A DNA stretch of 64,000 nucleotides from Branchiostoma floridae (GCF_015852565.1 NC_136205.1:3066707-3130706), one strand, 5' to 3'. Shown: positions 10,101-64,000, counted from the stretch's first letter. Notes: generated from the sequence alone by a model not told the origin. Translations and numbers: made by a program.

Positions 10101-13100
10101 GCTACATCCGGGACCCCACCGGTTTTCTTGACATCCTAAAGAAAAAATGACAGGTGTTAACACTCACGTGACTGTGTCTTAGGTACTGCCCGCCATGTTG
10201 GATGGTTAAAGCTGGAAGTTGCTAGGTAACTTTGAATTATCATATGCAGACGTCAGGTAATTATTACATCATATCATACAAATGCACATTTACAGGTATC
10301 CAGAAGGGAATCAACCAACATGGCAGACAGTAACATACCAAAACTATTTTTTTCAGAATGCTCTGGGGACAAGAACTGACATTCTAAGTGAATGTATGAT
10401 AAACGTTGTTTTTGAAGTCTCCATTGATCAATCGACCCATCAATCAATCAGTCAATAAATTAATCAATCAATTTACTTAAAGTTTTCTACTAACTTCTTG
10501 ATAAATTGTAGTTTACTAACAAGTCAGATTCAAGGATGTATTCGTGTGCTTTACAGAATATTGTGAAAAGGCAGTTAAAGACAATGGTCAGTGCAGCAAA
10601 CTGATAAGTTTAGTGTACCTCTGACAATGACTCTAATCATAGCGCCATTTTCCGGTTCTCCGTCGTAATAGCATCTGTACACCCCCGCGTGTTGAGTGGG
10701 ATCGGCCCCACTGATGACGTAAATGCTGCTGCTTGTCGATTTTTCCTGTGAAATATTTCACTTTGGTAAAAACCATAGCAATAAACGCAACGATGTTGTA
10801 TATGATATAAAAACTAAACTTGTAAGTGAAACATTGATATGATAACTGCGATGTTATATGGATAGGATTATATTTTGAAGAACGCACAAGATTTTTGCCT
10901 ACAAAGCCTTTTGCAAAAAGGCAAGCAAAGAGACGGAAGAATCGAGAGTATTTAAGTAATGATGACAGTTGACTCTTATGGGGTTATGGGTTTTTGATAG
11001 TACATAATTTCCATGTAATTCTTTACATTATGCGCTACGCAATACCAACATTATTGTCTACAATGCATAAAGCAACCGAGCAAACAAACAAACAAATGAA
11101 CGGAAACAAACAACCAAGAGAATTATAATAATAATGACTGTTTATTAATCAAACATTGAATCGCATCTCACCACCCCATTCTGTTTCCACCGGATCCGTC
11201 TGAACTGTGTCTGCTGCGCCGTCATGCGGATTGTCAAGGTATCGCCGCGGTTCACGGTCAAGGAGAAGGTTGGGGGAGTGAAGGAGGCTGCCGGGTGAAA
11301 AATAAGTAAATAAGAAACCTTGTAAATCTATATCTACAGAACTGCAATGACGTAAATCTCCAACTCATGGGATCGCGTGGCACGATCGGGAGCGCGTTGG
11401 TCTCAGGCCCGAGAGGTCCGGGGTTCAAATCCGCTTGCCGTGTCACCGATCTTGTGCCCTTGGGAAAGGCACTTTACATGACTTTCCTCACCTAACTCAG
11501 GTGTAAATGAGTACATCGCTGCGGCTAGTGGCAGTGACAGGCCTTTGTGGTGGTGACAGGCCATAGGGGCATGTTCGGGCATGACGCACCCGCCATGACA
11601 CATGAGTCAGGGGTAGGAGGAACCCCTTGCATCCTTGGTCGGAAGTCCTCCTAGGAGACGGAAACTCCTAACAACAAACCTGCATCTGCTGGGGCCGTCT
11701 TACACGTTGCATACAGTTGACGAGAGTTCCTTCACCTTAAAAACCCAAGTGCAGGCCAGGCCGACGGGTCGCCTTAAACCCGTCCGCCTACCATTGTCTT
11801 CCGAGACAGACGGATGCCAACACAACAAACCTCCAACTAGTGCGTCAATCCAATTCCAAACCCTCACAGACAGTACCCTCCGTCCCTGTGGCGTCGCCAA
11901 AAAATCTTCAATTTCAAAACAGGTAAGGGTTTCATTGAGCAAACTAAACGTCGTTTAACGTTACATACTAGGGCTGGGTATCGGTACTGCGTACCGGTAC
12001 AAAACCGGTTTTTCTTATTGGACCGGTCCAGAAAAACCGGACCTGAAAAAATTAGGTGGACCGGACGTTGGACCGATTCAAAAATTAACAGATTATTTTA
12101 TCAGGCATTCACACGTTTTAGCGCTTGCAGGTGGAAGAAAATAACAAGAGTGAAGTAGAGTAGAGTTTATAGTAATTTCTACCAAGTTTTACAGCAAATC
12201 GTACAGGTGTAGTTAGCGTTGTATGGTTTTAAAACGCCAGTGTAAGTCTAATACTCCACCAAACAGATCTCTTTGTAGTGAAATGGACCATTGGTATGAG
12301 TCATACTGCATCAGGTCCAGGTTCAGGTCCGGACCTGGACCTAATCCTTTGGACCTGAACCGGACCTGGACCTGAATTTTCGGTACCGGTACCCACCCCT
12401 ATTACATACCTATTCTCTTAATAGATAGGTACAAAATCAGTGCTATTCCCTCCTGGTCTGCACTATTAAATACTGCTTTATATTTATAGTATTTTTAATG
12501 TCACATTTACTAAATAGTAACGTTGATAATTGCCAATTTAAGTCTGGGTGTTAAGGTTGCTAAGGCTAAAACTGACTTAATTCACCGAGTTTTACAGCAA
12601 GGTATAAAGGTCTCAATATTGTTTTAGTATATTTATGTATTATTATGTCTATATGTATGTATGAATAAATCATTCAATAGAAACCATAAATGGTTCTTTT
12701 AGTTTTTATTTTACCTGATTCGAACATCTTCACTGCTGCCACTTCTTCTCCCTGGGCAGAACATTGGAAACCGCCGATTCGCTCATCCCTCATGAACGAG
12801 TAAAACGTCATCTCCTGTCCTGGCCAATCAGATTCATCCCCTCTCATGGCCCTTGGGTTGGACCACCGGGGTAAGCTTGAGGCAGACAGAGCGTCGAACG
12901 TCGTTACGTAGGGCGTGACGCATTTGACGTAGGTGGGCGAGCTGTCAACAAACGGGAACTTGTTGATGACCGTGATGTCTATAACAGCTCCTGGGTGTCA
13001 AAGTGAAATATAGGCAAATGTTTTAGAAAGGAATACTTAACCCTATTCAGACCGGTGTGACAGCGATCTCGCCCCCCCGTGATCTCGCCCCCCGGGGGGC

Positions 13101-28900: not shown

Positions 28901-31900
28901 GGTAGATCTCTGGGTGAAAAACATGCTTGTGAGAGACACACATGGCCAAAGCGTTATTAAATTTCAACTATATGACAAGGACATACATGTAGCAGAAATA
29001 AGTTAAACAGCTTCTTTAGGAGTTTTTAAAAAAGGTAAAGTTCAACCACACTCCTTATTTTCAGTGGGCAGTCCATCAGAGTTGAGAACGTGTTCAGGGT
29101 GTGTCGCTCTGTGGAGGAAGCTGGGTTCAACTCTGCCATCGGGAATGTCCAAATCAAGTTTCACTCCTCACAGGTAAACTATTTGTTTTCTCACAATGAT
29201 TTTGTTACTAAATCATGTTTTTCAAAAGTGACTAATGAGAAGTTAACAAAGTTAGTATTTTTTAAAAAATTTTCTATATCAGTCTATCTTAGTTGAGGCA
29301 CCTGCATTTAAAGCTCCTTCTATGTATTTTCAATTAATAAATCTCTTTTGTATATTTTACAGGCACAGAACTTTGTTGGCATCTTGTCAAGGTAGGCAAG
29401 ATTTCAGTTCTGTATCTGTATCTGTATCTGTATCTATATAGCCGGTATAACCGCCGTTTGGCGTAACACACCAGCTTCGCAGGCACGCGGCGCGGCAGCA
29501 GCTGGTTATATTACACCAAACGACTCGTTACCCCTAACTTTTGCACATCTATCTGCAAGCATTCTTTAAAACTACCCAGAGAAGATGCCCCTACTGTACT
29601 TGGTGATAACAAATTCCACTTAGAATTGTTAAGAATGAATGACAAAAGGTGTTGATATAACCTTAACCCTGTGAAACTAGATCTTATGCAATAAATGATC
29701 TCTATACAGTCATCACATTAGTATTTAGTAACAGTTTTAATATTCGTTAACTAGCATTATTTTTAGTTGTCTGTCTCTTTTACACGTTAAACTAAAAAAC
29801 ATGACCTTGAAACGTGTGTTGTTCAGAGGTCTGCTGCTCCCCAAGGTCGTTGTTGATGACTTCGGCGGAACCAGAACTGACGCAGGCATGCTGGGACATG
29901 GCATCTACTTCTCAGATGCAAGGTAAGGGTCGTGTGGCGCAATTAGAGGGTGTTTGATTGATGAAACTCTTGTTTTCCCAGTTTTCCGTAAGCCAGTGAA
30001 AATGTTTGGTACATGGTGCTGAAATGCCGTCCATCAAAATTTGAAGACTTAGTCAGTTACTACTGGTGGCTGCTGGTCCCAGAAAAGTTATTTCCTGATG
30101 TCAGTTTCCTGCTATATGTATGTAGTACATGTATGACCTAGGAGCCAGTGGGGAAAATACTGAAGACTTTATCAAAAAGAAATTTGCAGTAATAATGACT
30201 AAAACTGGAAATTAACATAAACTAAAAAAAGAATATTTCATTGAGGCATGACACTATTGATTTCTTGTTTCTTGCTATTCAACAATGGTCCATTCTTACA
30301 GCACCAGTGCAAAATACTCCTCTCCCAACAAGTCCAGAGGTACCAGATACATGGTAGTGAGTGAGGTAGCCTTGGGGAAGTGTAAGGATGTGTATCAACA
30401 CGGCATCGATTCCTAAATGTTTCTAACATTTCAATCATGGTCCTTTCTTACAGCACCAGTGCAGCATACTCCTCTCCCAACAAGTCCAGAGGTACCAGAT
30501 ACATGGTAGTGAGTGAGGTAGCCTTGGGGAAGTGTAAGGATGTGTATCAACACGGCATCGATTCCTAAATGTTTCTAACATTTCAATCATGGTCCTTTCT
30601 TACAGCACCAGTGCAGCATACTCCTCTCCCAACAAGTCCAGAGGTACCAGATACATGGTAGTGAGTGAGGTAGCCTTGGGGAAGTGTAAGGATGTGTACA
30701 AACACGACACCAGCCTGACACAACCACCTCAGGGGTACAACAGTGTGCATGGAGTCAAGGGGACTGATGAGATCACTTCAGAGTTTAAGGTAGGAATATT
30801 CTAAATGAGAAACGAACTCTTCTCCAACTCCAAAGTATTGAATTTTTGTCTGAATAACTCAGTCGTCTTAATCTGGAGAGAATCTCATTTTCATTTACAA
30901 CTGTCTTGAGAAGCAAGAAGAAGTTGAACCTTTACATACTAGACTAAGTATACTTTAGACTTTGTTGTCTTAGTTTTATATCACATCCTTACACACATTG
31001 CACTTAGAATCCCTAGGAACTGCATTCTATTCACCTTGTTTCCAATGACATAATTTCCGAAAACCAACATGCGTATAGAAAATCACACTCTACAGCTAGT
31101 GCCCTTATACAAATGTCTGACTACTGGTTGGGGGAGATAGATAAAGGGAATTTGATTGGCGCCGTTATGCTAGATTTTAGCGCGGCATTTGATGTCATTA
31201 ACCACGATATTTGTTTAGCCAAGCTTAAGAGCTATGGTTTTGAGGAATCTGCAATCAAGTGGGTACAGAGTTATCTTGGCAACAGGAAACAAGCTGTATT
31301 CGTTAACGGTAGTTTTTCCTCATATAAAGAATCCAGGTGCGGCGTTCCCCAAGGCAGCTGCCTGGGTCCATTGCTTTTCTCTATATTTGTCAATGATCTC
31401 CCCGCATTTACAAATAGTATAGTAGTCATGTACGCTGATGATTCAACGCCCTCAGCATCGGCTCCCACTGTCGCGAAATTGAAATACAAATTGCAGACTG
31501 ACTTGGAGCGAATCTGGAATTGGGTACAAACTAATCATCTTGTTCTCAATATTGGAAAAACTAAATCAATCATGATGGGTACGCAACAAAAACTAAAACG
31601 TAATCCCAAATTAGAACTAAGAATAGATGGAACAGACATTACACATGTAGAACAGGCTGAACTGTTAGGTCTCACTATAGACCAACGTCTCACATGGGGA
31701 TCGCATATTGACAAAACGAAGAATAAAATGGCAGGCATACTAGCCACAATAAGACGACACAGGAAGTACTTCACAAAAAGTATATTGAGATCTGTTATTC
31801 AGGCTCTGGTTTTGTCACACATTGACTACGGCTCAGTGCTGCTATCCTCTGCACCACAGACACACATAGATGGTCTTCAGGTGGTCCAGAATCGCGCTGC

Positions 31901-34900
31901 TCGCCTGGCCACAAACAAGCCCTTTGACACCAACCTGGAAGACCTACACATGCAGTTAAAGTGGCAAACCGTTAAAGAAAGACTCTTCACAAATACTGTA
32001 TGTACATTCCACAAAATTGTTAAGGAAAGGCAACCCCAATGCATCTTCAAGCAATTACAAACAATTCAATCCACACATGAGCATCACACGAGGCTGTCTA
32101 CTAGAGGAGCATTCACTCAATCAAAACCCAAAACAAACGCTAAAACAAGGACATTTGGCTACAGATGCATCAAAACCTATAACACATTGCCAAACACAAC
32201 GACATCATACAACAACATTGAGTTCAAATCTAGGATAAAAGAGCTTGCGAAAACACGAGACAAAAGACAACCCCTGAGCACATGGTGGTAATGATTTTTA
32301 TATTTCAGTATATCTAAGTTATATATTTATGTTGTGTTATTAGTACACTTTTGATTGGATTGTGTTTCAATCAATTAAGTTAACTTCTTCTGCTATTCAT
32401 TATTTGTTATGTATGATCACTTCTTTATTTTGACCTCTGACCTCTGCTTATTATTTTGCTTATTATTTTACGCTAATTATCCGCTTTTGATGTTAAGTTG
32501 TTTCTTTTTCATTTCATGTATTTTATTTATTCTTATTATTATGACTCCAGGAAGAGTAGTGGCATGATTTTATGATGTACACTAATGGAGATCGCAACAA
32601 ACAAACAAACCTTGACCTGTACTTGTTAGAGAGCATAAACGTATAATAAAGGTCTTCATTATCATTAAAAAATCTTAGACAGAAATTGTCAACACAATGA
32701 TTACTAATAGATTTATATCATTTATAGCTTAATGAGTTTTGGTAGTAGTTAATTACATATGTTTCATACTCAATCTGGTATATCCTGTTACAGGATGATG
32801 AATATGTCATCTACAATGTTCAGCAGCAAAAAATGAGGTATGTGAAACGAATTCCCATAATTTTGTATCTTGTGTTGTTTATAACTGTGTGGCAGAAAGT
32901 AGAAGTGGAGATTGTCACTGCCCTAACATCAATTCTCATAATTTAACTGGGTGCCATCAATACCCCCAAATGAGAAAAAGACATGAATTCAATGTAATTT
33001 AAAGAGATACAGACATTACAGTAGAAGCCAGTCAACTGCACAATGGATTAATGCACACTTCTGTTAACTGCAAGGAATCCCAAACCGGTGCAGTCCAGCT
33101 AGATAACTTTGCATTATTACACCAGCCGGATAATTGCACGAGATTCATTGGCAAATAGGCCGTGCAATTAAGTGGCTTCTACTGTATATGAATGCAGCAT
33201 ATGTAATCCTTGGGTACATGTATATAGTATTACACTTCAGATATTTACGTGACATGTTCAAAATGATCTTGAGAATGCCTCTATGTTGAGGTCTTATGGC
33301 ATCTGATGGAATTATGAGACTCATAAGTTGATGTTACACAGTGTTTTTAACCAACCAATTCTCACTGTACATTAACCATTGCTTTCAAGTACTATTTATT
33401 TATTGGTTTAGCTGTTCAGAACACACAGCCAGGGTTGCCCAACTAGCCTATGGCTATTACAAAGGGCTAACCCTGCTGACAAAAACAGAGACAATACATA
33501 TGGATTTGAACAGAATACTTATCAACAGATTTTCTAAGTTCATAAAGGATAGAAATGAAAACAAAAAAAAGTACATTTATACAGTATATACAAGGTGTAG
33601 CATGGCATACATATTATCTATAATAGAATATATAACATCATATATAACAATATTTGCAATGAGAGGTCAGGGTCTGTATATACACGTGTATGACTATGTG
33701 TAAGGGTCGCCTAGGCATTCTCACAGTTTTCTTTTGCTTGATAACATTGTTAGTGCTTTTGCAGATGTTTATTTCATGACCTGAATTTCTCCGTTGTTGC
33801 AGGTACCTTGTGGAGTTCTCGCTGCCAGGTGATCAGGTGACACCTGTGGATGAGACTGCTTACCTGCACCTGCTCACACCTGAGGGGGAGGCAGAGGAAG
33901 GGGAGGATCTAAACAAGATCTGTAAGTGCTGTAAAATTATTACAGGCTTACAAACTCTTAGATAAACAGGTACATAGAAAGTAGTGTGCTCCCTTATGTA
34001 TTTGGGGGGTTGGCTCAAACCCTGGTTTGAAAAATAGTACATACATGACTTCTTCAGCACTTAACACTTATGACAAAGAGTGTAAAAGCACAACAGTGGA
34101 CTAACCCCATACTGTGGTGGTCCTGTGTAGTCTAAGGCCTGTAGAGATATAGCTGCCACCTCGTTCAGTCTATATATGATAAGTATGGGACTTAGAATTA
34201 GGACTAACTTAAGTGTTTTATGCCTTGAAAATAAAAAGTAAAATAATAATTAGAACATGCATCTATTGCATGTTACAGCTCTATATAGTCTATTGATTTT
34301 AACAGGATTCAAGTTTTGTTTTCAAAACTTATTAAAACTTTGAAAGGAACAATGATTTCACTAACTGTTACTGAAAAGCATACAACTTTTTTTTTTTCAT
34401 CCAGCCCTTGAAGATGTGCAGAACATTGCTGACCCTCTAGACAAGGTCAAAGGTGGGCTTATCTCCAAACACGGGGAGGAGACCCCCGTCCCGCTCAAGT
34501 CTGTACATGTCAGAGCCAAGCTCCTGGATTTAGCTGCACAGGTAAACTATAAGTTGTATCCATTATTTGATGAAACTGCTGCTGAGGGGTGGGTACCGGT
34601 ACAGAAAATTTAAGTACTATCTGGTTCATATAAAGAGGAAAATGTCCAGGTCTGGATCTGAACCTCGACCTGATTGTCTGTGAAAACCTTCGTCCTGAAG
34701 AAATTATGGTAACTACAAAGTAAAACTAAACTCTTCTTCACTCTTGTTATTTCATTGGACATTTTGTAAGCTCCCAAACGTGTAGACCAGTGCCATAATC
34801 TGTTCATTTTCTATCAGACTCTTATCAGGTCTGTTTTTCTTGGACCGGTAAAACAAGAAAAAAAATACACTATATCAATGTTCGTCCACTATTGCTTGAA

Positions 34901-40900: not shown

Positions 40901-43900
40901 CACACATGCACACACATGCATGTACAATCATGTGTACACTGAGAAGATATTAAAGCAAAGCTTAAACCTCAAGTTTACTGTGTTTGATATAGTGACTAAT
41001 ATACATGTAGATGTATCTAAAACCCTGTCAAATTCCTAGGTGAAAGCCCAGCTGTGGAAAGCTGCCCAGCCCGGCCTGACGTCCATGTCAGTTGATTGGC
41101 AGCAGTGGGATGATGATGCCCCGCCTCCTGTCCAGGCCCCCAATCAGATCGTCTCTCTCTTCAACGGTTTCCGTCAAGTGGTGTATGGCTACGTCCCACA
41201 CTGCACTCAGGTCAAAACATTCCAATATACATGTAGTACCTGTCAACTTGTAAACCTGAGTCTGTAAACTTGTAAAATGCAAAACTTTGTACTAATTTGT
41301 ACCAGGTCTCAATGTTGTGCTCTTTGGAATTTAGGCACAATATCCACACTCATCAGAATGAATACCACAGTATCCATTTTTATTAGAATGAATACCTAAC
41401 TGTTGTTAGTGTCACTAAAATGAGTGATGCTGAAGAAGAGTGATGGATGTCACTTGAAATGTCCGTTTTTTTATCCAGTTGTTGGGATTGAATTGTATTT
41501 GAATATTGTTTACCTGGGTGTCCAACCTTCATAAAGGACTTCTCAAACTAATCTGAAACATGGCTAATCATTCTAAAATGAAAAAGTTTGTAATTGAAAT
41601 TACTGTAAATGTATTTAAGTTCGCGGCGATTTAATTTTGCGGGAGTGGGAAATGGACTTTTCACCGTGGTTTTAATTTTGCAGTAACACCATAGACTACA
41701 GTCTAATACCATAAAGAAAAATGTTCGCGGTGGTTTTAAGTTTGCGGTGAGGTGGTCTCCGCGAAAACAGCTAGCATTAATCCACCACGAACATTTCTGC
41801 ATTTACAGTATTGTTTTTATTTATTCCAGGCCACCCTGAAGGCTGTCATCAACAACCGGGAAATCAGCACCATGGTCTCCACCACTGAACTCAGCATCAC
41901 CACAGGCAAGGTGGGACAGGTTTTTGGCTACACCTCTGGGGTGGAGGCCATATTTCTTTTTAATAGCTGGGATTATTTCCTGTAACCAGGCATTTTAATT
42001 TGTTTGTTGATTGTTTATTTAAGGATTGAGACCTATACTAAACATACATGAGCAAAAGAGAAATAAAGCAACAGCTGCAGTAACAACACAGAATAAGAAC
42101 ATTCATACAACATTTTGGCAACTGTCTGTCACCTTCCTCAGAGCAATTCTGAGGGCCACTACACATTTTAGCTAAGGTGTCGCTGCTAGCAATGCACGTT
42201 AGGAACTATGACAGCCATTTATGCGTTCCCAAATATAACATTATACATATAACATATATTGATCACAATGATTGTTGTCATATATAAAATTACAGATGCC
42301 GACAGTCAGTAGATCCTGGTTGTGAATAAAAAAAATGTTACATTATAATAGTGATTTTCCAACCTGACTAAATGATTCAAAGGACTAACCACACAGTTTT
42401 GTCCCAGATCCTGCACCAGCTGACGGCCCGTGCTGTCATCAGAGACTGGGAGGACGGGACCCTGCATGCAGACAGGATGCACCATGAGGTCAGCGTGTTC
42501 TAAATCCTGACATTGAGAATCAGTGTGGTATTCCTCATGTCATGTGTGGCTGTGCTGGGTGGTTGTCTTTGTAGTACCGTAGCACAGTTTTCGTTGCTCA
42601 TTTGTACATTCTGCGGTCATGATCTTCTAATGGTTGATAGGTCTTTGGCTCATGAAAAAGTGGTATAATTTTGGGCCCTCTGGCAGCTTTTTTTAAACTG
42701 TAGGAGGCGATGTTTGAAAAAAAGAGTAAGGCAGGTAGGGGTTGACGGATTGTCACAATTTTTGCTATGTAGATGGCTTAAGAGATAATTGACATACTTA
42801 GTTGGCTTGTGTAAAGGGGTATAGTTTGGGGCTCTTTGGCAGCTTTTTTTGTAACTGCAGGAGCAGGATCTTCATGAATTTTGGTTAAAAAAAAACTTTG
42901 TAGATGGCTTTAGAGATAATTGACATGCTTATCTTTCTCTCTTTTTTTCCAGACAAAGAAAATGGGTCTGAAGCCGTACATTATCGACCTTAGTAAGGAG
43001 TACTCCATCGTCACACAGTTCACCAGCTTTGTAGCTGTGGAGAAGCGGGAAAAGGTGAGAAAAATTTTGGTGACACCAAGGGAACAGAACTTGTACTTGT
43101 AACAGTTACTGTAAGTGTGGAAATAACTCATAAGCCAGAGCGAAAAAAAAAAAAATCCATGAAAACAAAAATTCTGCCAAACCACAGGACTAAACATCCA
43201 GACCATTTTTTCCCAGGCTTGGTTTGTCTTATGGTCCACATCCAGTAAACCTGTAAGATACAATCATCGCCATTTCAATAAATATTTATTCATTTATTGC
43301 TATTCTTGTTCAAAGAGGGGAACGCCCCATGCCCTGACCATTTGCCCCCTTACCCTGAGGAGCGGATCCTCTGACAGTTATAAAATTCTGATTAACCAGG
43401 GGTAGTTTAAGGACAAACGTGGGCATAGTTTGTTTGTTTTTTGAGAAAAGGGGAAAAGCAACACACTCACGGATGTTATTCATAGAATGAAGTCAGTGTG
43501 GCCTATGACATAATGATTGTTTGATGCAGGATGAAGATCTGACTACCGGTGAGGGTCCAAGCATCACAGAACTGGTGGAAAAAGAGAGTGTGGACATCCT
43601 ATCCTACATGGGATGGGAGAGGGACAAAGGGGAAGAGGAGGCAGAGGAAGTGTATAAGGTATGAGCCAAATTAAAGTGGAATTTTGGCTTGCTTTAAAAT
43701 GAAAGATTTTTGTGAAGAAAATCAAGTACGTGTGCCTTAAATTTTTTGACTGGACATCGCATAGTTTCTTGTATTCAATTTCTAGAATAAAGTGCTTGAT
43801 GGACAGATCACAGAAAAGGCCATTGAACACAGCTTGGAGTTCTACACCACTGCAGTGGAGACTGCAAAAAGGGAGCTTCCCCCAACCCATCCAACAGTGT

Positions 43901-46900
43901 TGCAGTCACAGCTCTCTTTGGCAATGTTTTATCACAACAAATTGAATATGCAGGACAAGGCCTGCCTGGTTGCAAAGGCTGCCTTTGACGATGCGATCGC
44001 GGAGTTGGATACTCTGAGCAAGGAAAGCTACAAGGACTCGACCTTGGTGATGCAGCAGTTGAGAGACAACTTGACATTGTGGTCTGCTGAGGACGGGGAA
44101 GAAGAGAAAAAAGCCAACGAAAAGAAAAAGGTCCTTATTCCTAGTGTCAACCATAGCTCACTTTGGCTAATCAACCTTCTCGGATGAAGCCCATCTTACA
44201 TACCCAACCATGGCCTCGCGACCTTCTCCAGACCATGGTTGGGAGTTAAGCCCCTGTCACACATAGCCGACCATGCCCTCCCAACCTTCTTCAGACCATG
44301 GTCAGGAGTTAAGCCCTTGTCTTACATACCTGACCATGGCCTCCCAACCTTCTCCAGACCATGGTCAGGAGTTAAGCCCTTGTCTTACATACCTGACCAT
44401 GGCCTCCCAACCTTCTCCAGACCATGGTCAGGAGTTAAGCCCTTGTCTTACATACCTGACCATGGCCTCCCAACCTTCTCCAGACCATGGTTGGGAGTTA
44501 AGCCCGTCTTACATACCCAACCATGGCCTCGCGACCTTCTCCAGACCATGGTTGGGAGTGAGACCATCAGTAATTTGGACCAGACCAAACTTGGCAAAGT
44601 CATATTCTTCTAAGGTGCAAGCAGATTGGTAAAATGGAATATGGTTGGTAGCAAGTCATTGAAAGGTCCTGAATTTGTGACAGGGGATGTGACTAGTACA
44701 TAATTTTGCATGGAAACGGGAATAGACCGACTGAGTGTGCTTGTTAAAACTAAGAGTAGATTATCTTCAAGACCAGAATCTTCAAATTACCAATTGAATT
44801 TATCATAACTTTTCTATATTTGATGTTGTCAACAGGTCATAGAGGAAGTTTATTATGAAGAGGTTTTAATGGGAGGTAAGATACCAATTAATCTTTAATT
44901 TACATTTAGTTTAACCTTGTATTAAGTTGGAATTTATTGAATGGTTGATCATGAGATTTCAACACCAAGGACTCTATTGAAATGCACATCTTGATTTTGT
45001 TTTGGTATTTTTATTTTCCAACTTCTAGACTTGGATGATTTTGACATGGAGGACCCTGAGTATCTAGAAATGGGAGGTGCTGGTGTTTCCTCCAGCACAG
45101 AGGAGACAGAATCTGATGACTCGTGGGGATCAGATTCAGATCTAGATGAAGAGAGTGAATGTGAGGAAGGTAAGAAACTAGTTGGAAATCTTTAACGATG
45201 TATCTGCCCATCATTGCCAATCATCATCATCATATCTTGTCGCTCCATCTCCTTATCCAGCTGCGGGCTGCCTCATTGGCCTCTCTTAAGCTAAGGGCAC
45301 AACCTGCCGTACATACAATTTGTCTGTATGTTTTTTTAGGCCACGTTCCCCACATATGTCTGGAAACGCTTCGTCCGTACTGGCACATAGGGGGGCAAAT
45401 CCGCAGCCCGAGGGCACACAAAGTTTTGCCTGCACGTAAAGTTCTACAGCGTGTCTGCGTGCTCCGTCGGATTCTCTACGAGTTTGTATGGAGGCGGTAC
45501 TTACCACTTACGGATCCCAAAAGATTGCCCACGTATTTGCATGTACAGCGGGCTGTGCCCTTAGCTTTAGGTCACTGTCCGAGCAGGTTGGGCCAAGTTC
45601 ACAGTTTTGTAACAGATGTTGTATTGTTTGCAGCTCTGCTCAGTATGGGCAGGCTGCACTTGCAGATTTGTCCAATTTCATTTCCAATAACGTTTTCCCT
45701 AGAGTTTTGTTTATTTGATGTTTTTGGTTTTGATGTTGCTTAGACTGGAGATGGTTCGCTAGACCTAGTGGTTGACCAGTCAGGTTTGACTCACTGTGGA
45801 CTGCATATTTACTTTTGAATTATTCTATTGTAAATGCCCATATGGTTGTTTTATGTTCACAGTTTCACTGTTGCCGCTTTACCACATACTCAAACCACTA
45901 GGAACATTTCTCCATGACAGTAAATTGTTGCTACAGTATATGGTGCTATTGCATGTGAACTCAAAAAGTCCATTTTCCTGCTTCTGCAAAATCAGATCCC
46001 TGCAAACTTAATTGCATGTACTGTATCTTGTTCACAGGAGGTAAGGAAACAGTAAGAAAGAAAGATTCATCATCACCAGAGGAGGAAGAGAGTGAAGAAG
46101 AGATGGGGTTTGGATTGTTTGATGATGGTGAAGGTAGGATGGCAGGTGAGATGGTAGAGTACTGTAAATCTTGAGATGCATGGTTTTCATGGTGACATCT
46201 CCACCATGATACAATCGCCATACAAACAGCCCGGCTGGGCCCTGGGTTATAGAAATGTGACTTAGTCCTTACTGTTACCTAGTTTAATAAAAGAGACAAC
46301 GAAAAAGAACTGCAGTCAAAAATCATACTTTTGACACTTTTTGTTGGGCTCCGTTTTTCAAAGACACTAACTCTTGAATCTTTCTATTTCTTCAACAGCT
46401 GCTGATGAAAAAGAGGGTTCTCCTCTTGCTGATACTTATCAGATGAAGGCTAATGCCTTGCAATTGGAAAAAGGTCGATTTGCATCTCCCATGAGGTCTA
46501 GATCAAGGTCAAGGTCAGATAAACATTCCTCTCCAGCATACAGCCCGACATCTCCAGCATATAGCCCAGCATCTCCAGCATATAGCCCGACTTCACCTAC
46601 TGAGGAAGCCACAGAGGCTGAGTACACAAAGCCTAAACCTCTAGCTCGGAAAATGGCACCAAAACGGGTCGAAAAGGAGAAGGCACCAAGCCCACACTTC
46701 TCAAAGATGTCTGCAACGTTCTTGACCCGAGAATCTGAAAGGGGAAAGTCCTCATACAGAGTGTCAGATGAAGTTCAGGCTCGTGTAGATCGCCTTGATG
46801 ATCTAGTAGAAAAAGCTGATGCTCTTAGTGCACAAGCTGCAATATTTGGTGCTTCAACAACCATTTCTAAAGATGATGGCCTCTTTGCCGGTTCAACAGA

Positions 46901-49900
46901 GGCAAGTGTGCAGAAACCTAAACCTTTTGAATCCAAGCCAGGTATCGTTCAACCTGCCAGATTTACTTATGAAGCAACACCAGATACTACCAAGGGTCTT
47001 TTTGGCAGAAAGGCTGAACCAGAGACTGCAGGGTTTGCTCTTGCCCAGTCTGTGGCCGCAGAAGAGCCAGCTCCTGCTTTTGGTTTTGGAGCTCCAGTTG
47101 CAAGCTTTGGTGCAGAAACTTATGGAACTCGTGGTGTAGACTTGGATGCACCCATACCGTATGGCAAAATCCCAGTTGGTGGAACGCCGTTTGGTGAAAC
47201 GCCAGTTAGTGGAAAGCCGTTTGGTGAATCTGCTGTAAAGTTTGGAGGTCCTCCTGGCACTGTAGCTGGCACAAAGACGCAAGAGACTGCATTTGGTCAG
47301 GGTTTTGGTTATGCTTCAAGTCGTGGTGTAGGCTTTGGTAAAGCAACATTTGGTGAAGCAACATATGGCACACCATTTGGTGGAACACCATTTGCTGCAA
47401 CCACAGGTCTTTTTGCCCACTCAACTGCACCAAAGGATCAGGAAGCTGTGTCATTTGGTTTTGCTCCCTCTACTGACCAGAGCACAAGGGGTGGTGGAGG
47501 ATCCGCAGGTGGTTTTAGCTTTGGTTGGACTGCATCATCAGATTTGGGACAGAGGGATCGAGACAGGAGCTCCCCCCTAATTGGTGACACAAAAAAAGGA
47601 TTCAAGTTTGGAGCCTCACTTGAAGAGAAAGAAGAAACAGCAAGCTTTAGCTTTGGTGGATCCAGCCAGAAAGTGGTTCCTCAAGCAGGTTTTGGAGCTG
47701 ATCAACAGATGCAGCAGCAACAACAGCAACAACAACAACAGGCTCAGATGAATGTCTCTGATACTGCTCCTCAGAGGAAGATGCGAAGCAGGCTTCATGG
47801 CGCTATAGCTACCTTAAGTGAATCCAGTCAAGCAGAAATGGTTCCTGAAGCAGGTTTTATCTCCAATCAACGGATGCAGCAGCAACAGGCTCAGATGGAT
47901 GTTCTTCTTACTGCTCCTCCGAGGACAGGTGGTGGAAGGGTTCATGGCGCTTTAACTAGATTAGACGAATCCAGTCAAGCAAAAGTGGTTCCTCAAGCAC
48001 GTGTTGGCTCTCGAGCTCCTCAAAAAGCGAGGAAGACAACTGGCGGCAAGGCTGTTAGAGTTTCTTCAGGATTCAAGGACAGCTTGGACATCGTAGACAA
48101 GAGTTCACGCGACACTGGTGACTCTTGGAGAGCTGTCAAACGGACCGAGACCCCCATGGCTGGTTATTTTGACATGAGGGCCATGTCCCCTGCCTCAACA
48201 AATTCTGCACAGTCAGTTGCTTTTCAACAGCTGTCAGCATCTGCTGCCTTTCTACAGGCACCCCCTCCTGCGCCACCCCCTTGTTCAACAGGCCCCCCTC
48301 CTCTTCCACCCCGCTGCCCAGCAGGACCCCCTCCTCCAGCTGGTGCCCCTCCCCCACCACCACCACCCCCTAAGGGCATTCAGCTTCTTAAACCAAGAGC
48401 AAGTTTAAAGTCCAAAGCAGTAATGGCAGCACCCATGCGTGCACTATCCATGCCCTCGAAAGAATATGCCCCATTGCCCCCTCCTCCTCCAAGTTCAGTC
48501 GAACAGGCACCAGAGCTACCAGCATGGGATAGAGAAGAAGAACTGCAAATGGGGATTGTTGAAGAAAGCCGTGCAATTGCTTCGTATGAACAGATGGAAG
48601 AGTTAAAACCATTGTCAAGAAGTTTGGAATTGAGACAAAAGAAGAAAAAGAAACAGTTCGAAATCCAGGCAAGGTTGGAGGAAGAAAAGGTATCATTGGA
48701 CAAAGTCATGTACATGGATGAAAGCGTTCAAGAAGGAGAGGAAATGTACAGGTAAGAGTGAAGTCAACAAAGTACAGTCTCTACCTAATTAGATGAATGT
48801 GAAATTTTCCACAAATCGGGGGAATATTTTATCTGAGAGCTTGCAATTGCCTGGTTAATGTAGTACAGGCTTGTCCGCTGAAGATTGTAACTTGTAACTG
48901 TAGCCCTTTGGCCAATTTCTACTGATTTTTCACATAAACCACAGTCTCATAGGGACTAAATGAAATGTTTGATTTATGTAATTGTGGCAAACATGTTGCC
49001 TACCTGAGCTTTTCAAAGGAAAAATGTAAAGTTTCAATAAAGTTAACGTAAATTACTTTCAAGGACCAATTTAGGGACTATTCTTGACAATTGAACTACA
49101 TGTAAATCCAAGGTTACACAAAGCTTACCATAAAAGTGTACAACTTGTGATAACAGTCATTATTTTCCACATAAAGCAGTGTTCAAGTTTGTGGGCACGG
49201 GTCAATGGTATGCAAATGTATTGTGTCGTCTTAACTTTATTCTTTAAAGTAGGGGTTCTTTGCATTGAGCAATTTCATGATATTCATACAATGCCACATC
49301 GTTGTAAACACCACAGAAGACAGTATCTCTTTTGTTTAGTATTTTTGTTTGATGTCAGCCTGTTGTTACATGATTGTGTATAATTATGCCTTTGTCATCT
49401 TGTTCATGACTTTTGTAACATGTATTACAAACTTTATTTCAGGACCAGTTTGAGGGGGTTTTACGGTCCAAGAAGAGGTCCCGGTGCATATCACTCTGCC
49501 AGCTTTCATCTAACCTCAGGTAGGTTAATCAATTCATGTGCAAAGTAAGGCTAATATCAGTAGTCTAAGACTAGATGGAGAGCTTTTTTATATAGTCATC
49601 CAAAGATCTAAACTTCATTGAAATATCATGATAGGACCGTTGATCATTGAAATAGCATTGAAAGATGTTGTAGGTCACTAAAATATCATTAGTAAGACCA
49701 TACTTCAAATGGGGGCATGGGTTCGTATCCCACTTCTGACACCATATTGGCTTAGAGATTATCTCAGTCGTAGACTTAAAATGCTCAACATTTCTTGTCC
49801 CAAAGAACTAATTGCCAAGGTACAATGGACCTGTAAATACTGTACACAGTGTCCATCTTACCTGTCATGACCAGTGCAGATGTTAGTAATGACTGACTAA

Positions 49901-60017: not shown

Positions 60018-61225
60018 TTAAAGTCCAAATACGTGTAGGAAGTTTTTATTCGATTCCTCCCAGTACTTCGAATCCAGCAGTTTCTGCTTGAGCCGTTGAG
60101 CAACCTTGAACTCCGTGCTTCTATTCTTCAATATCTGCACAATGCGCGTTTTTAGCCTTGCCACGTCTTCGTGGTCATCGCCACTGATCTCCACAATCGG
60201 GTGCGTGAAATCCAAGTCACCGTCAATCTTATATTGGGCCTTCAAGAACTCTGCAAGCCCCGACTTGCTGGAAACGACCGTAGGGACACCCGCAGCGATG
60301 GCCTCGAGGCCAACCAGTCCGAATGGCTCTGCACGTGACGGCATCAGAACAACATCTGCCCTTCCCATCTCTTCGCACAGCTCTTCCTGTGTGCAATACT
60401 CCAGAGGGGTGAAGGGAACAAACTCAAATTTACCTTTGTTGGCGTTGATGATCTCCTGTGTTTTTTCAAAATCCCCTTTCTTGATGCCACACAGTCGCCA
60501 CTTCGTGTTGGGTAGTTCCTCGATCACATCTCCCATGCTCCGTGCTGAAAGATCGTAGCCTTTCAACCTCTCCACACCCTTGACCCTACCGATGGACAGC
60601 ACCACTCTTGTGTCGGTCTCCGCGGGTGGTTCCATATTGGCCTTGCTGAATATGTCGGACGGTTTAGGCAAAAACTGGATCCGTTTTAGTTGTTTGACTT
60701 GCTTTGTCTGATGCGTGTAGTAGTCGTGCAACCTTGGACCTACTGAGACGACAACACTTGCATCTTTAAGGTCATCCAGAATGCTCGCATGCTCCTTTGC
60801 TATCTCCTGCACTCTCTCTGTACTTTTGTAGTGGCTCGTGTTTTCAGGGATGACGTGTGTGACTTGGGCGAGTTTGGCGTCAGGAAGGCGGTCCTCCTTG
60901 ATTCGTTTTGCTGCGCGGCTTGTGATGTTAACGTGACCGACGATGAAGTCTACATCTTCCGGTAAGTGTGGATAATAAGTCAGATGTTGCCGGGTCAGCC
61001 ACTTAAGGTTTGGGGTTTCGTCGTCATCTTCGGTTCTTGGAAAGATCAGCTGAACCCCATCAGCAGCTGCATCATCCTTGTCCTTCTGGTTGGCCTGTAA
61101 GACTGTGCTGTAGACCTTTGCCCCTTTCAAAGCCAGAAAGCGCGCCGTCTGGCGGTGGATAGTGGATATGCCCCCTTTGGAGGTCCCATACTCATCGTTG
61201 AGCATCAACACCACGGGCTTTCCCC
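60018..61225 (-). CDS. ZU5-UPA-GT gene terminal exon: complete GT4-type glycosyltransferase domain (about 400 aa) in one exon
   Basis: Track ORF 60018..61244. Gly-rich N-terminal motif: KPVVLMLNDEYGTSKGGISTIHRQTARFLALKGAKVYS. E-x7-E motif EPFGLVGLE at 60303-60329, followed by AIAAGVPTVVSSKSG. Acceptor ctgtttaaag at 61226-61235, phase 1. Confidence 0.85.
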
Positions 61226-64000
61226 CTTTAAACAGCAAATGCACATAGTTTTTTCAAAGTTGCAGATAGACTGTTGATATCATTAAAAGTAGTAAAATAT
61301 GATTGCATGATCTTGGGCCTCCATCCATAGCTAAAGATATAGTTAAAGGTGTTGATATTTTAGGATGTACACTTAGCTATTGTCCTCGTGTTCGATACAA
61401 GTGCAGCATTTTGTCGATTAGGTTATACCTGGCAACTTCCTCATCATTTTCAGTTTTTCTAAGGTAGCACAACGTACAATTATATGCATTCAGTTCACTT
61501 TAGGAAATAAAACATGTGAGCCAGATTTGCCTTGTCCACTTCTGTACACTTCGGGGCTACCTGTGTGTTAGCTGGTCTCAGTTTTCTGTCCAAACAATGC
61601 TGCAGTGTAATGCACAATGTAGATCCTGTATGCTCGACGTATGGGGCAATTGACTTGTTTTTGTTTTTTTAAACATGGTACTGGTACTGTTATAATGCAG
61701 CAAAGTACTAGTACTATTTTAATGACCCAATTTACAGCTGTCGTCCACAAGTCCCATAGACTTTTGTTGCTTTGGACTGGAAAATGTATAAATCCTCACC
61801 TTCTTTCCGAGAGGCAGGTGCTGTTGCCCCTGCCGGGCCACTATGGAGATTGGTGTTAGAATCGTCTGGCTCAGCACCCATCTCAGGTACACCTGTAGTT
61901 TAAGGGTCAAATAGTTGATGTAATATCGAGTGCTTTATTTCAAAGTCTAAAGACTTTATACAAATGAAACATAATCAGAACCATATACGTGTATTTGGAT
62001 ATATGCGTATTTGGTAAAATGAAATGAAATGAAATGGATTCTCACCTGGGTTACTGGTTTCAGTTGGTACATGGCCAGACCCAACTTTATTTGGGGATGT
62101 CTCAGGACGGTGGTCATTGGTCCGGTTACCATTACCTACCAAGCACGAAGAAAAACAACATAGCAATTAGACCCGGTGATATGTTAAGACGTATATGAAG
62201 ATATAACTTCAGGTGTGCAAAAGTCAAAATATAACCAAATTAAAGGCCCTCGTCAGTAATTCTCATAGACTTTCGTTGCCTTGGACTGGTAAATTATATA
62301 CTGTACGTGGTTTCTATTTATTCGGAATTAGCCTCTCAAAGTGTCGCAGAATTCCATAAAACTACATCTAGATCACTTATTTGACATCTGAACAAAATCA
62401 AAGCAACAGTACCATTGTTAAATAACAATTATAACAATTCGGCATAACAATTACAAAAATTCGGCATCACAGAATGAAGGGACATTTTGTATTCCTAGAC
62501 TTTTATAGAAATAATTACATGACTTTTGCAAAGAGAAAAATGTACTCACTAGAAGTGTTAGGAATTCGATCTTGGCGTTCCTGAAAGAGAAAAAAAGCAC
62601 GCCGGGAACTTTATTTTGGGGACATCGCAATACCATAATAATGGCTAATTGTAGCATGATGATCTACTAAATCGTACATCAAGTAGACGTGTTTGATATT
62701 ACACCATAATATTTGGTCATATGATTCTAAAGCTACATTTTGTTTGTACTATGGTTTTAATCCGGTATTTGGGTAAGCTTTGCTTTAGAATAAAGCATTT
62801 TCGGTTATATCTTAGACGCTCTTACCTCCCGAAACGTGAACCTGCATACAACCCGAGGTTCTTGCTCTTGAATAGTTGTGATGATGACTTCACCCTTAAG
62901 ATGTTTTCCGTTCGGCCTATCCAGGAGCATTTGAACAGTCTGTCCGTGCTCTTCGCGACAGAGCTGGGCACATAGCTCTATTGTCTGAGATTCTTTTTGG
63001 CCTTCTTTGATACTGACAACAACTTCAATATCATTCCTTTGAAACAGATCGAACATTGCTTTGTTGCTTCCACACATGGTGAAGCCAGGAAGGTAATAAT
63101 CTTTTTCAACACTCTTGTCCCTACACACAACATGGAAATCTACGTCTACTTCATGTGGCTTGATGTGTGCGGAAAACCGACAATTTAAAGTTCTTAACGA
63201 CAGAACGTATGCCATGCTCTGTCCTACATGTACACCCGTTTCAATTTGCTGCAGCTGCTGCTCGGTCCACAGCACACACAGGGGACAGAAGGCTTGCAGA
63301 GATATGGACAGTTTGTCCGGATGTATCTGATGTGGGGTTGAAGCTGTGATATCTGCCCAGCCATGTCCATCGAAATGCTTCAGCAGAACACATTCCATGC
63401 CTTCAGTACCCGGAGGTCTCCATGTCTCTAGCTCAATTGGTCCACTCAGCTGTGCGCCGTGTAGGTTGACATCGACAGCCGGGGAGAACAGCACCTGATC
63501 CAGCAGCTCGCGTGGACAGGCCTCCTCACATAGAGACCAAGGGTAGCCAGAGATCCAGCTGAAGCCTTCGTCACCTCTCAAAATATCGGGAATGTCTACA
63601 GTAGAAACTGTAATTGTTGTGTCTCTCTGAAGGACGCCTGATGGCACACAAAGTTTGGCAAAACCGGAAATCTCAATCTCCCCACCCGATGGTCCTACAA
63701 ACGCCTTTGCAGTCTTTGTGTGATGTAGCTCTTGCAGTATTCCTAAAATAAGTCAAAGGCATATTAGATTTGATACGTGCAAAATACAAATTTTGTTCAA
63801 ATATGTTTTACGTAAATCACCTGGCTGTCTTTCCAGTGCATAATACAGTTTGAAAGGAAAGTAATCTAGGGCGAGAAAAAACAGTACATTGGTTGTAGAA
63901 AAAAGTATGCTATACTCGATTCGAATTCTCTGTTGCGTACACACGCTCTGCTTGCAGTAAGAACTTGGTGTGTGTTGATGAAATTCAAACAAACCTGCAA
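60018..64000 (-). CDS. Gene model (3' part; the 5' exons lie beyond 64000): FIIND-like ZU5-UPA module, Pro/Ser/Thr/Gly-rich linker, GT4-family (Glycos_transf_1, GT-B fold) glycosyltransferase domain
   Basis: Five exons with canonical splice sites whose phases (x/0, 0/1, 1/1, 1/1, 1/stop) give a single open frame from 63742 to the stop at 60018. Confidence 0.75.
61800..61892 (-). CDS. ZU5-UPA-GT gene linker exon
   Basis: rc: GVPEMGAEPDDSNTNLHSGPAGATAPASRKE. ctacag/gtgagg. 93 nt, phase 1-1. Confidence 0.6.
62046..62135 (-). CDS. ZU5-UPA-GT gene linker exon
   Basis: rc: SNGNRTNDHRPETSPNKVGSGHVPTETSNP. ggtag/gtgaga. 90 nt, phase 1-1. Confidence 0.6.
62550..62580 (-). CDS. ZU5-UPA-GT gene 31-nt exon
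   Basis: rc: ERQDRIPNTS. ctttcag/gtgagt. Converts phase 0 to 1, as needed between the flanking exons. Confidence 0.5.
62826..63742 (-). CDS. ZU5-UPA-GT gene exon encoding ZU5 and UPA (FIIND-like)
   Basis: rc: [48 protein letters not shown]...SPAVDVNLHGAQLSGPIELETW...LLKHFDGHGWADIT...LSISLQAFCPLCVLW (ZU5), then ...NCRFSAHIKPHEVDVDFHVVCRDKSVEKDYYLPGFTMCGSNKAMFDLFQRNDIEVVVSIKEG... (UPA-like). Acceptor ttattttag at 63743-63751, donor gtaaga at 62825. Confidence 0.8.

What the first reader, a model, noticed from the sequence alone, without database searches (positions are those of the whole stretch)
63279..63296. Cys replaces the nucleophilic Ser at the FIIND-type autocleavage position (QAF|CPLCVLW vs NLRP1 PSF|SPLGVLL)
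At the ZU5/UPA junction the protein reads SISLQAF-CPLCVLWTEQ (F at 63290-63288, C at 63287-63285). As I recall, human NLRP1 is cleaved between F and S in ..ENPSF|SPLGVLLKMI.., CARD8 at an analogous F|S, and PIDD1/UNC5CL at HF|S. The window matches the pattern x-F-(S/C)-P-L-x-V-L, with Cys instead of Ser. Cys is a competent nucleophile for N-to-S acyl-shift self-cleavage, as in inteins and hedgehog. Autoprocessing may therefore be retained with different chemistry. An earlier HFD (63377-63369) lies within ZU5, is not at the junction, and is probably irrelevant.
Basis: partly seen in the sequence, partly recalled or inferred. Interest (0 to 1): 0.6.

Follow-up and report, generated by a model that had tools for sequence, protein, structure and literature searches.

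The report
Cysteine at a self-cleavage site
An amphioxus immune-type gene has a self-cutting-type protein module (ZU5-UPA, as in the human NLRP1 and CARD8 inflammasome sensors) in which the residue that normally does the cutting is cysteine instead of serine; this natural swap recurs among paralogues and suggests the cut is kept, but cleavage has not been shown.

Summary
On the minus strand, F is at 63290-63288 and C at 63287-63285, in SISLQAF-CPLCVLW. The exon (63742-62826) belongs to XP_078585414.1 (Branchiostoma floridae x B. japonicum): TPR, DED-like region, this module, then a GT4 'conflict' glycosyltransferase.

Among 23 amphioxus paralogues this column holds Ser (18) or Cys (5) and nothing else. 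It is the only such column of 306, and Cys arose at least three times. The best profile-profile alignment to true FIINDs puts F-C on NLRP1 F|S, but weakly (P=0.007; 4 of 150 shuffles).

Pfam's FIIND models do not match, and the model is unreliable just after the site. Cleavage is inferred, not shown.

It lies 30 residues before the nucleophile, against 27 for the His that CARD8 needs.

Verdict: a divergent, unannotated ZU5-UPA module with a probable thiol nucleophile. It is a new variant of a known kind, of moderate interest.

The parts
62826..63742 (-). Exon encoding the whole ZU5-like/UPA-like module (residues 306-611 of XP_078585414.1/P0013). The acceptor AG is at 63744-63743 and the donor GT at 62825-62824.
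   Evidence: The translation matches P0013 (98.4% over a 314-residue tblastn match that runs past both exon ends). The peptides checked at both exon ends and at the site map exactly.
63288..63716 (-). ZU5-like beta-sandwich (exon residues about 10-152). It includes the [23 protein letters not shown] and LFSPAVDVNLHGAQLSGPIELE motifs.
63375..63377 (-). Invariant family His and candidate counterpart of CARD8 His-270.
   Evidence: H in 24 of 24 members with this region. It lies 30 residues before C153, against 27 in CARD8, counted from the 7jkq_B alignment. The requirement for His-270 is from PMC3210808. The equivalence is inferred.
63285..63290 (-). Predicted scissile bond Phe152|Cys153. Cys153 (TGT, 63287-63285) is the putative nucleophile.
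63267..63296 (-). Junction motif QAF-CPLCVLW. It corresponds to NLRP1 PSF-SPLGVLL and contains a C-P-L-C (CxxC) pair.
62826..63287 (-). UPA-like region (residues 153-306). It has a low-confidence linker with a helix (153-185), then a high-confidence beta-sandwich (186-306, window 63188-62826).
62550..62580 (-). Small linker exon (ERQDRIPNTS).
62046..62135 (-). Linker exon (SNGNRTNDHRPETSPNKVGSGHVPTETSNPG).
61800..61892 (-). Linker exon (VPEMGAEPDDSNTNLHSGPAGATAPASRKEG).
60018..61225 (-). Last exon: GT4-conflict glycosyltransferase, the putative effector, with an intact E-x7-E motif (EPFGLVGLE, within 60332-60288). The stop codon is at 60020-60018.
   Evidence: Pfam PF20706 E=3.3e-77. Mapping of P0013 residues 684-1086 at 99.75%..

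Best explanation
The exon encodes a divergent ZU5-UPA module, restricted to amphioxus at the level sequence searches can detect. It sits between an N-terminal repeat or sensor part (TPR, then a DED-like helical region) and a C-terminal effector (a GT4 glycosyltransferase). By analogy with PIDD1, NLRP1 and CARD8, I propose the following steps.
1. The folded ZU5 domain strains the Phe152-Cys153 peptide bond.
2. The Cys153 thiol attacks the Phe152 carbonyl (N-to-S acyl shift).
3. The resulting thioester is hydrolysed.
4. This leaves an N-terminal TPR-DED-like-ZU5 fragment and a C-terminal UPA-GT4 fragment. They stay associated non-covalently until the N-terminal part is removed, which releases the effector.

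Shown here: the sequence, the gene structure, the ZU5 and UPA folds of the predicted model, the position of F-C between them, and the S-or-C-only constraint in paralogues.

Inferred: residue-level equivalence to the FIIND cleavage site, the role of His123, cleavage itself, and release of the effector.
For: - Fold. The second AlphaFold model (28-sequence alignment, mean pLDDT 74.8) has two beta-sandwiches, and F152/C153 come directly after the last strand of the first one.
- Foldseek against PDB. The only two hits with E<=0.001 are ankyrin-B ZU5-ZU5-UPA-DD structures (about 1e-10). Rat NLRP1 UPA chains match with probability 1.00.
- Site column. It is Ser in 18 and Cys in 5 of 23 paralogues and nothing else, and the preceding residue is F in 21 of 23. 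It is the only column of 306 holding only S and C. At the 12 other variable Ser-majority columns, only 2 of 74 replacements are Cys.
- Recurrence. Cys appears in at least three places in a tree built with the site masked. It is found in B. floridae, B. lanceolatum and the hybrid assembly.
- Alignment to FIIND. The best hhalign alignment to a 30-sequence FIIND profile puts F152-C153 on NLRP1 F-S and FHVVCRD on FHLYLIPSD (P=0.0066).
- Architecture. Paralogues carry variable N-terminal Ank, TPR, RING, Roc-COR or kinase parts, then the module, then Death, GT4 or trypsin-like domains. This is the same logic as sensor-FIIND-CARD.
- Literature. Ser, Thr or Cys can all start this kind of acyl shift (PMC3210808). 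The GPS site is naturally L|T/S/C (PMC3321182).
Against: - Pfam FIIND and UPA-FIIND models do not match any member, even at E<=10.
- The Pfam ZU5 score in the window protein is below the curated cut-off (12.7 against 21 bits).
- The profile-profile similarity to FIIND is marginal. Four of 150 block-shuffled profiles score as high, and the alignment is lost when only the ZU5 or only the UPA part is used.
- Residues 153-177, right after the site, have pLDDT below 50 and are not modelled as the strand that follows the cut in known ZU5-UPA structures.
- The closest structural matches, ankyrin and UNC5B, are to my knowledge not autoprocessed, so the fold alone does not imply cleavage.
- There is no His at position -2 (it is Ala151), as in FIIND but unlike PIDD and Nup98.
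- I have no expression or protein data.
Confidence: 0.55

Rival explanations
1. The module is a non-cleaving ZU5-UPA scaffold, as in ankyrins and UNC5 receptors. F-S/C would then be a structural motif (a small residue at a strand end) with no chemistry, and the module would only mediate intramolecular autoinhibition or protein binding.
Against: A merely small residue would be expected to drift to A, G, T or N, as other Ser columns in the family do. Instead the column holds only the two nucleophiles, and Cys is otherwise a rare replacement for Ser (2 of 74). The motif F-S-P-[LV]-x-x-[VL] matches the experimentally cleaved NLRP1 and CARD8 site (PMC3210808). An invariant His lies at a FIIND-like distance upstream.
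Confidence: 0.3
2. Ser-type paralogues self-cleave, but the Cys-type ones, including this gene, are impaired or conditionally blocked. The block could be slower chemistry in this active site, or a Cys153-Cys156 (C-P-L-C) disulfide or metal site. These proteins would then act as uncleaved decoys or redox-gated sensors.
For: The window protein and its nearest Cys relative P0020 both carry a second Cys three residues on (FCPLC, FCTLC). None of the 27 vertebrate FIINDs sampled uses Cys. That shows Cys is not freely interchangeable in that branch.
Against: Three other Cys-type paralogues lack the second Cys (P0003, P0011, P0021). Cys has been kept in several lineages and species with the rest of the motif intact. 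The cytosol is normally reducing. Cys is a competent nucleophile in related autoprocessing systems (PMC3210808, PMC3321182).
Confidence: 0.12
3. The Cys is an assembly or annotation artefact, or the gene is a decaying pseudogene copy in a large paralogue family.
For: There is only one assembly for this exact gene. The gene model is a computational RefSeq prediction. The look-up of encoding contigs had no independent record of it.
Against: All five exons in the window are open, have canonical splice sites, and match the model. The GT4 domain scores E=3e-77 with an intact E-x7-E motif. Cys at the same column occurs independently in four other proteins from two other genome projects.
Confidence: 0.03

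Closest known systems
FIIND of NLRP1 and CARD8 (ZU5-UPA, autocleaved at SF|S)
- Junction motif F-nucleophile-P-L-x-V-L, with no His at -2.
- A conserved His about 27-30 residues upstream.
- The module lies between a variable N-terminal sensor part and a C-terminal effector or adaptor.
   Different: - No match to Pfam PF13553 or PF23679, and only marginal profile-profile similarity.
- The nucleophile is Cys here.
- The stretch between the site and the F-H hairpin of UPA is 15 residues longer than in NLRP1, and the model places a helix (167-184) there.
- A DED-like region precedes the module.
- The payload is a GT4 glycosyltransferase (Death or trypsin-like domains in paralogues), not a CARD.
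- Amphioxus also has canonical FIINDs, sometimes in the same protein (P0026, P0027), so this is a separate lineage.
PIDD1 / UNC5CL autoprocessing ZU5 domains (HF|S)
   Same: A ZU5 domain with Phe followed by a nucleophile at its C-terminal edge. Many paralogues continue ZU5-UPA-Death, as PIDD1 does. The proposed chemistry is an acyl shift followed by hydrolysis (PMC9162469).
   Different: Position -2 is Ala, Ser or Thr, not His. The nucleophile is Cys in this gene. There is one site, not two.
Ankyrin and UNC5 ZU5-UPA-DD supramodule (not known to self-cleave)
   Different: This family keeps a strictly nucleophilic residue after the Phe, which a purely structural junction would not require.
GPS/GAIN autoproteolysis site (L|T/S/C)
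   Same: A natural family in which Thr, Ser and Cys alternate as the self-cleavage nucleophile (PMC3321182). Zhang et al. 2012 place it in one superfamily with ZU5 (PMC3482391).
   Different: A different domain architecture, an extracellular setting, and a His-Leu rather than x-Phe context.
Inteins and Hedgehog (N-to-S acyl shift at Cys)
   Same: The same first chemical step as proposed for Cys153.
   Different: An unrelated HINT fold. In those systems the thioester is resolved by splicing or cholesterol transfer, not simple hydrolysis.

Membership tests
FIIND (Pfam PF13553 + PF23679; NLRP1/CARD8 type) | Significant match to the FIIND and UPA-FIIND sequence models | tested here: not met
   There is no FIIND or UPA-FIIND hit for any of 9 members at E<=10. 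The same models hit true amphioxus FIINDs at 4e-30. hhalign to a 30-sequence FIIND profile gives P=0.0066, and 4 of 150 shuffles score as high.
FIIND (NLRP1/CARD8 type) | ZU5-like domain followed by UPA-like domain | tested here: met
FIIND (NLRP1/CARD8 type) | F|S dipeptide with Ser nucleophile at the ZU5/UPA junction | tested here: inconclusive
   Phe is present at the junction, and the next residue is Cys here and Ser in 18 of 23 paralogues. hhalign puts F-C on NLRP1 F-S. The model is unreliable for residues 153-177, and I could not make a residue-level structural superposition.
FIIND (NLRP1/CARD8 type) | Conserved His in ZU5 required for processing (CARD8 His-270, 27 residues before Ser-297) | tested here: inconclusive
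   His123 is invariant and lies 30 residues before Cys153 in a similar L-L-K-H-F strand. The equivalence rests on pattern only. The low-confidence extension of the hhalign alignment instead pairs it with the LPH His.
FIIND (NLRP1/CARD8 type) | Autoproteolysis into two associated fragments | not testable with these tools
   This needs protein expression and mutants.
Canonical ZU5 domain (Pfam PF00791) | Match above the curated score | tested here: inconclusive
   The window protein scores 12.7 bits against a cut-off of 21 (E=0.16). Eight of nine paralogues match, best E=1.6e-4. Two distant family-profile hits (E 1.6e-6 and 6.2e-5) match Pfam ZU5, one of them (P0033) above the curated cut-off.
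ZU5-UPA-DD supramodule (ankyrin / UNC5 / PIDD) | ZU5 then UPA then Death domain | tested here: not met
   ZU5 and UPA folds are met. The window gene has a GT4 glycosyltransferase instead of a Death domain. Many paralogues do carry a Death domain.
PIDD/Nup98-type HFS autoprocessing site | His at -2, Phe at -1, Ser at +1 | tested here: not met
   The sequence is Ala-Phe-Cys. The family consensus is S/T-F-S.

The most novel reading that the evidence does not exclude
A cephalochordate family of innate-immune-type proteins uses a previously unannotated ZU5-UPA self-cleaving module to hold and release enzymatic payloads. Here the payload is a bacterial-type GT4 glycosyltransferase, and elsewhere a trypsin-like protease or a Death domain. 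Evolution has switched the nucleophile between Ser and Cys several times. The thiol versions would pass through a thioester, which could make processing redox-gated (C-P-L-C) or let the intermediate be captured by nucleophiles other than water.
Probability: 0.15. Interest if true: 0.65.

Novelty: new variant of a known kind. Interest (0 to 1): 0.4.

Why it matters
A natural, repeated Ser/Cys exchange at one position, with no other residue tolerated, is comparative evidence that this unannotated amphioxus module really is an autoprocessing device. It would show that the ZU5-UPA 'cut, hold, release' mechanism known from PIDD1, NLRP1 and CARD8 is older and more modular than the vertebrate examples suggest. 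It can apparently be coupled to enzymes such as a conflict-type glycosyltransferase, not only to CARD or Death adaptors. It also offers a ready-made test of how nucleophile chemistry (ester or thioester) affects FIIND-like processing. The finding is an extension of known principles, not a new one.

Tried and rejected
- phmmer of the exon protein and hmmsearch of a domain-only family profile against all PDB sequences gave no ZU5 or FIIND hit. A profile of full-length proteins only picked up Death domains.
- A Pfam scan gave no FIIND and only a sub-threshold ZU5.
- The first hhalign, with shallow profiles (9 against 4 sequences), found nothing (probability 0.1). Only deeper profiles gave the in-register alignment, and it is not robust to splitting the domains.
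- The first AlphaFold run (13 sequences) was too poor to use (pLDDT 57).
- A search with the canonical ZU5-UPA of P0021 against PDB reached only ZO-1 weakly, so I could not build a canonical HFS-type ZU5 profile.
- The afdb50 fold library was unavailable.
- The look-up of encoding contigs had no record of P0013, so I did not inspect the upstream exons or neighbouring paralogues.
- I recall that Ser-to-Cys mutants of PIDD and Nup98 still process. The papers (Tinel 2007; Rosenblum and Blobel 1999) are not held, so I do not use this as evidence.
- I rejected chance, artefact and pseudogene explanations. The reasons are given under the rival explanations.

Full report
**1. The observation**

The minus strand of 62400-64000 holds one long exon with an AG acceptor at 63744-63743 and a GT donor at 62825-62824. 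Its translation reads ...THPDKLSISLQAFCPLCVLWTEQQLQQ.... Phe152 is TTC at 63290-63288 and Cys153 is TGT at 63287-63285. All coordinates in the finding are correct.

The remembered comparison sequences are also right. A human NLRP1 fragment retrieved here reads VLENPSF-SPLGVLLKMI (P0049). Human CARD8 reads LESPSF-SLMGILLRI (PDB 7jkq_B alignment).

**2. The gene**

The window is amphioxus DNA. The exon is part of XP_078585414.1, an uncharacterised protein of the Branchiostoma floridae x B. japonicum assembly (P0013, 1086 aa). Five exons of it lie in the window:
- 63742-62826: the module
- 62580-62550, 62135-62046 and 61892-61800: a low-complexity linker
- 61225-60018: the last exon

The N-terminal exons lie beyond the window end.

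Pfam on the full protein finds N-terminal TPR repeats, a weak DED-like region just before the module, nothing on the module itself, and a C-terminal GT4-conflict glycosyltransferase (PF20706, E about 1e-76). The glycosyltransferase has an intact E-x7-E motif. Kaur et al. 2021 described this GT4 type as a predicted effector in bacterial conflict systems and in expanded invertebrate immune families, amphioxus included. The same paper predicts ZU5/FIIND autoproteolysis as a way to deploy effectors (PMC8195603).

**3. Is the module ZU5-UPA?**

Sequence evidence is weak.
- Pfam ZU5 scores below threshold in the window protein (E=0.16). It is matched by 8 of 9 paralogues, best E=1.6e-4.
- FIIND models do not match at all.
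- Searches against PDB sequences find nothing.
- The family is detectable only in Branchiostoma. A full HMMER scan of 1.84 billion representatives gave 29 proteins. Twenty-seven of these are clearly family members (E up to 8e-26). The other two (E 1.6e-6 and 6.2e-5) match Pfam ZU5, one of them above its curated cut-off, and share the N-terminal GG-x-L-x-hP-G-h-x-L-x-hP-x-G-A-L motif.

Structure prediction settles the fold.
- With 28 family sequences, AlphaFold2 gave mean pLDDT 74.8. It shows an N-terminal beta-sandwich (strands up to residue 149) and a very confident C-terminal beta-sandwich (186-306, pLDDT above 90).
- In Foldseek against PDB, the only two hits with E<=0.001 are ankyrin-B ZU5-ZU5-UPA-DD structures (2.6e-10 and 6.2e-10). 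Rat NLRP1 UPA chains match with probability 1.00.

The module is therefore a ZU5 domain followed by a UPA domain.

**4. Is F-C at the cleavage position?**

Phe152 and Cys153 come straight after the last ZU5 strand (144-149) and before the UPA sandwich. That is where PIDD, NLRP1 and CARD8 are cut.

With deeper profiles (22 family against 30 FIIND sequences), the single best hhalign alignment places window F152-C153 on NLRP1 F-S. It also aligns SISLQAF with IVLENPSF, CPLCVLW with SPLGVLL, and FHVVC--RD with FHLYLIPSD.

This support is modest. P is 0.0066, and 4 of 150 block-shuffled profiles score as high. With the motif masked, the UPA part still aligns in the same register (P=0.02), but isolated halves do not. 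The model has pLDDT below 50 for residues 153-177, and I had no access to coordinates. Relative to NLRP1, the family has about 10-15 extra residues between the site and the F-H hairpin of UPA, where the model places a helix (167-184).

**5. What paralogues carry**

In 23 family members with an intact junction:
- The nucleophile column is Ser in 18 and Cys in 5: the window protein, P0003, P0011, P0020 and P0021.
- Position -1 is Phe in 21 and Cys in 2.
- Position +1 is mostly Pro.
- Trp at +6 is nearly invariant.

Column 153 is the only one of 306 that holds exactly S and C. At the 12 other variable Ser-majority columns, replacements are T, G, L, E and others, and Cys accounts for only 2 of 74. 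On a neighbour-joining tree built with the site masked, the Cys proteins fall in at least three separate places. They come from B. floridae, B. lanceolatum and the hybrid assembly.

So the position tolerates only the two side chains that can start an acyl shift, and it has switched between them repeatedly. I regard this as the strongest argument that the site is chemically active and that Cys is a working alternative, not a loss.

As a control, 27 vertebrate FIINDs show F-S in 26 and F-T in one, and never Cys.

**6. Other catalytic features**

As in FIIND, there is no His at -2.

It lies in C-V-L-L-K-H-F-D-G, 30 residues before the nucleophile. In CARD8, His-270 lies in F-L-V-A-H-F-K-N-E-G, 27 residues before Ser-297 (counted). 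It is required for processing, as are His-252 and Glu-279 (PMC3210808). The equivalence is an inference from pattern and spacing. The canonical ZU5 'PH' His (CARD8 His-252) seems to be replaced by W-R in this family.

**7. Mechanism proposed**

The ZU5 fold strains the Phe152-Cys153 bond. The Cys thiol attacks it (N-to-S acyl shift), and the thioester is hydrolysed. The products are TPR-DED-like-ZU5 and UPA-GT4 fragments, which stay together until the N-terminal part is removed.

Family architecture fits a 'sensor, self-cleaving connector, payload' design. The N-terminal parts are ankyrin, TPR, RING, Roc-COR, dynamin-like or kinase domains. The C-terminal parts are Death, GT4 or trypsin-like protease domains.

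Chemical precedent: Ser, Thr or Cys can initiate such cleavage (PMC3210808; PMC9162469), and the GPS site is naturally L|T/S/C (PMC3321182). Zhang et al. 2012 group ZU5, GPS and the Nup98 domain in one autopeptidase superfamily (PMC3482391).

**8. Rivals**

- A non-cleaving scaffold, as in ankyrin and UNC5. This fits the structural matches but not the nucleophile-only column.
- An impaired or redox-gated Cys variant. The C-P-L-C pair shared with P0020 hints at this, but three other Cys paralogues lack it.
- Artefact or pseudogene. Open, correctly spliced exons and independent Cys paralogues argue against this.

**9. Novelty and score**

The chemistry and the ZU5-UPA principle are known. New here:
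- A divergent ZU5-UPA lineage that current Pfam domain models do not detect, and that I did not find described in the papers I could search.
- A natural thiol version of the F|S site that recurs within it.
- Its coupling to a glycosyltransferase payload.

I class it as a new variant of a known kind, with interest 0.4. Cleavage needs an experiment. The constructs and mutants are listed under decisive next steps.

Noticed in passing
window 63276-63287 (-), residues C153-P-L-C156: The putative nucleophile is the first Cys of a C-x-x-C pair (FCPLC). The nearest Cys-type relative, P0020 (B. lanceolatum), has FCTLC. Three other Cys-type paralogues lack the second Cys. This could be a disulfide or redox gate on processing, or nothing.
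   Followed up: partly
window 60018-61225 (-): The last exon encodes a complete GT4-conflict glycosyltransferase (PF20706, E=3e-77) with an intact E-x7-E motif. This is a bacterial-type predicted effector placed directly after a ZU5-UPA module.
   Followed up: partly
proteins P0026 (residues 631-882) and P0027 (1073-1201), also P0035 and P0099: Canonical amphioxus FIINDs, which match Pfam at about 1e-30, carry G-S (KKGS, EKGS) where vertebrates have F|S. P0026 and P0027 contain a canonical FIIND and the family's module (truncated at the junction in P0026) in one polypeptide, so they may have two processing sites, as PIDD1 does.
   Followed up: partly
proteins P0027 and P0028, motif SLTQCSTIV: In the two most divergent family members the Phe before the nucleophile is replaced by Cys (Q-C-S), while the Ser is kept.
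   Followed up: no
window 46374-48755 (+): A 793-codon open frame with no Pfam match. It is low-complexity, with [23 protein letters not shown] heptads that resemble the RNA polymerase II CTD, FG/GFG-rich stretches, poly-Q, and a formin-like poly-proline tract.
   Followed up: no
window 43792-44187 (+): An ORF matching the C-terminal half of a 14-3-3 protein (PF00244, E=2e-30), probably an exon of a neighbouring gene.
   Followed up: no
window 31113-32291 (+): A 392-aa ORF with a reverse transcriptase domain (RVT_1, E=6e-19), probably a retrotransposon fragment.
   Followed up: no
window 9747-10163 (-): An ORF with weak EGF-like matches (hEGF E=3e-5), possibly an exon of another gene.
   Followed up: no
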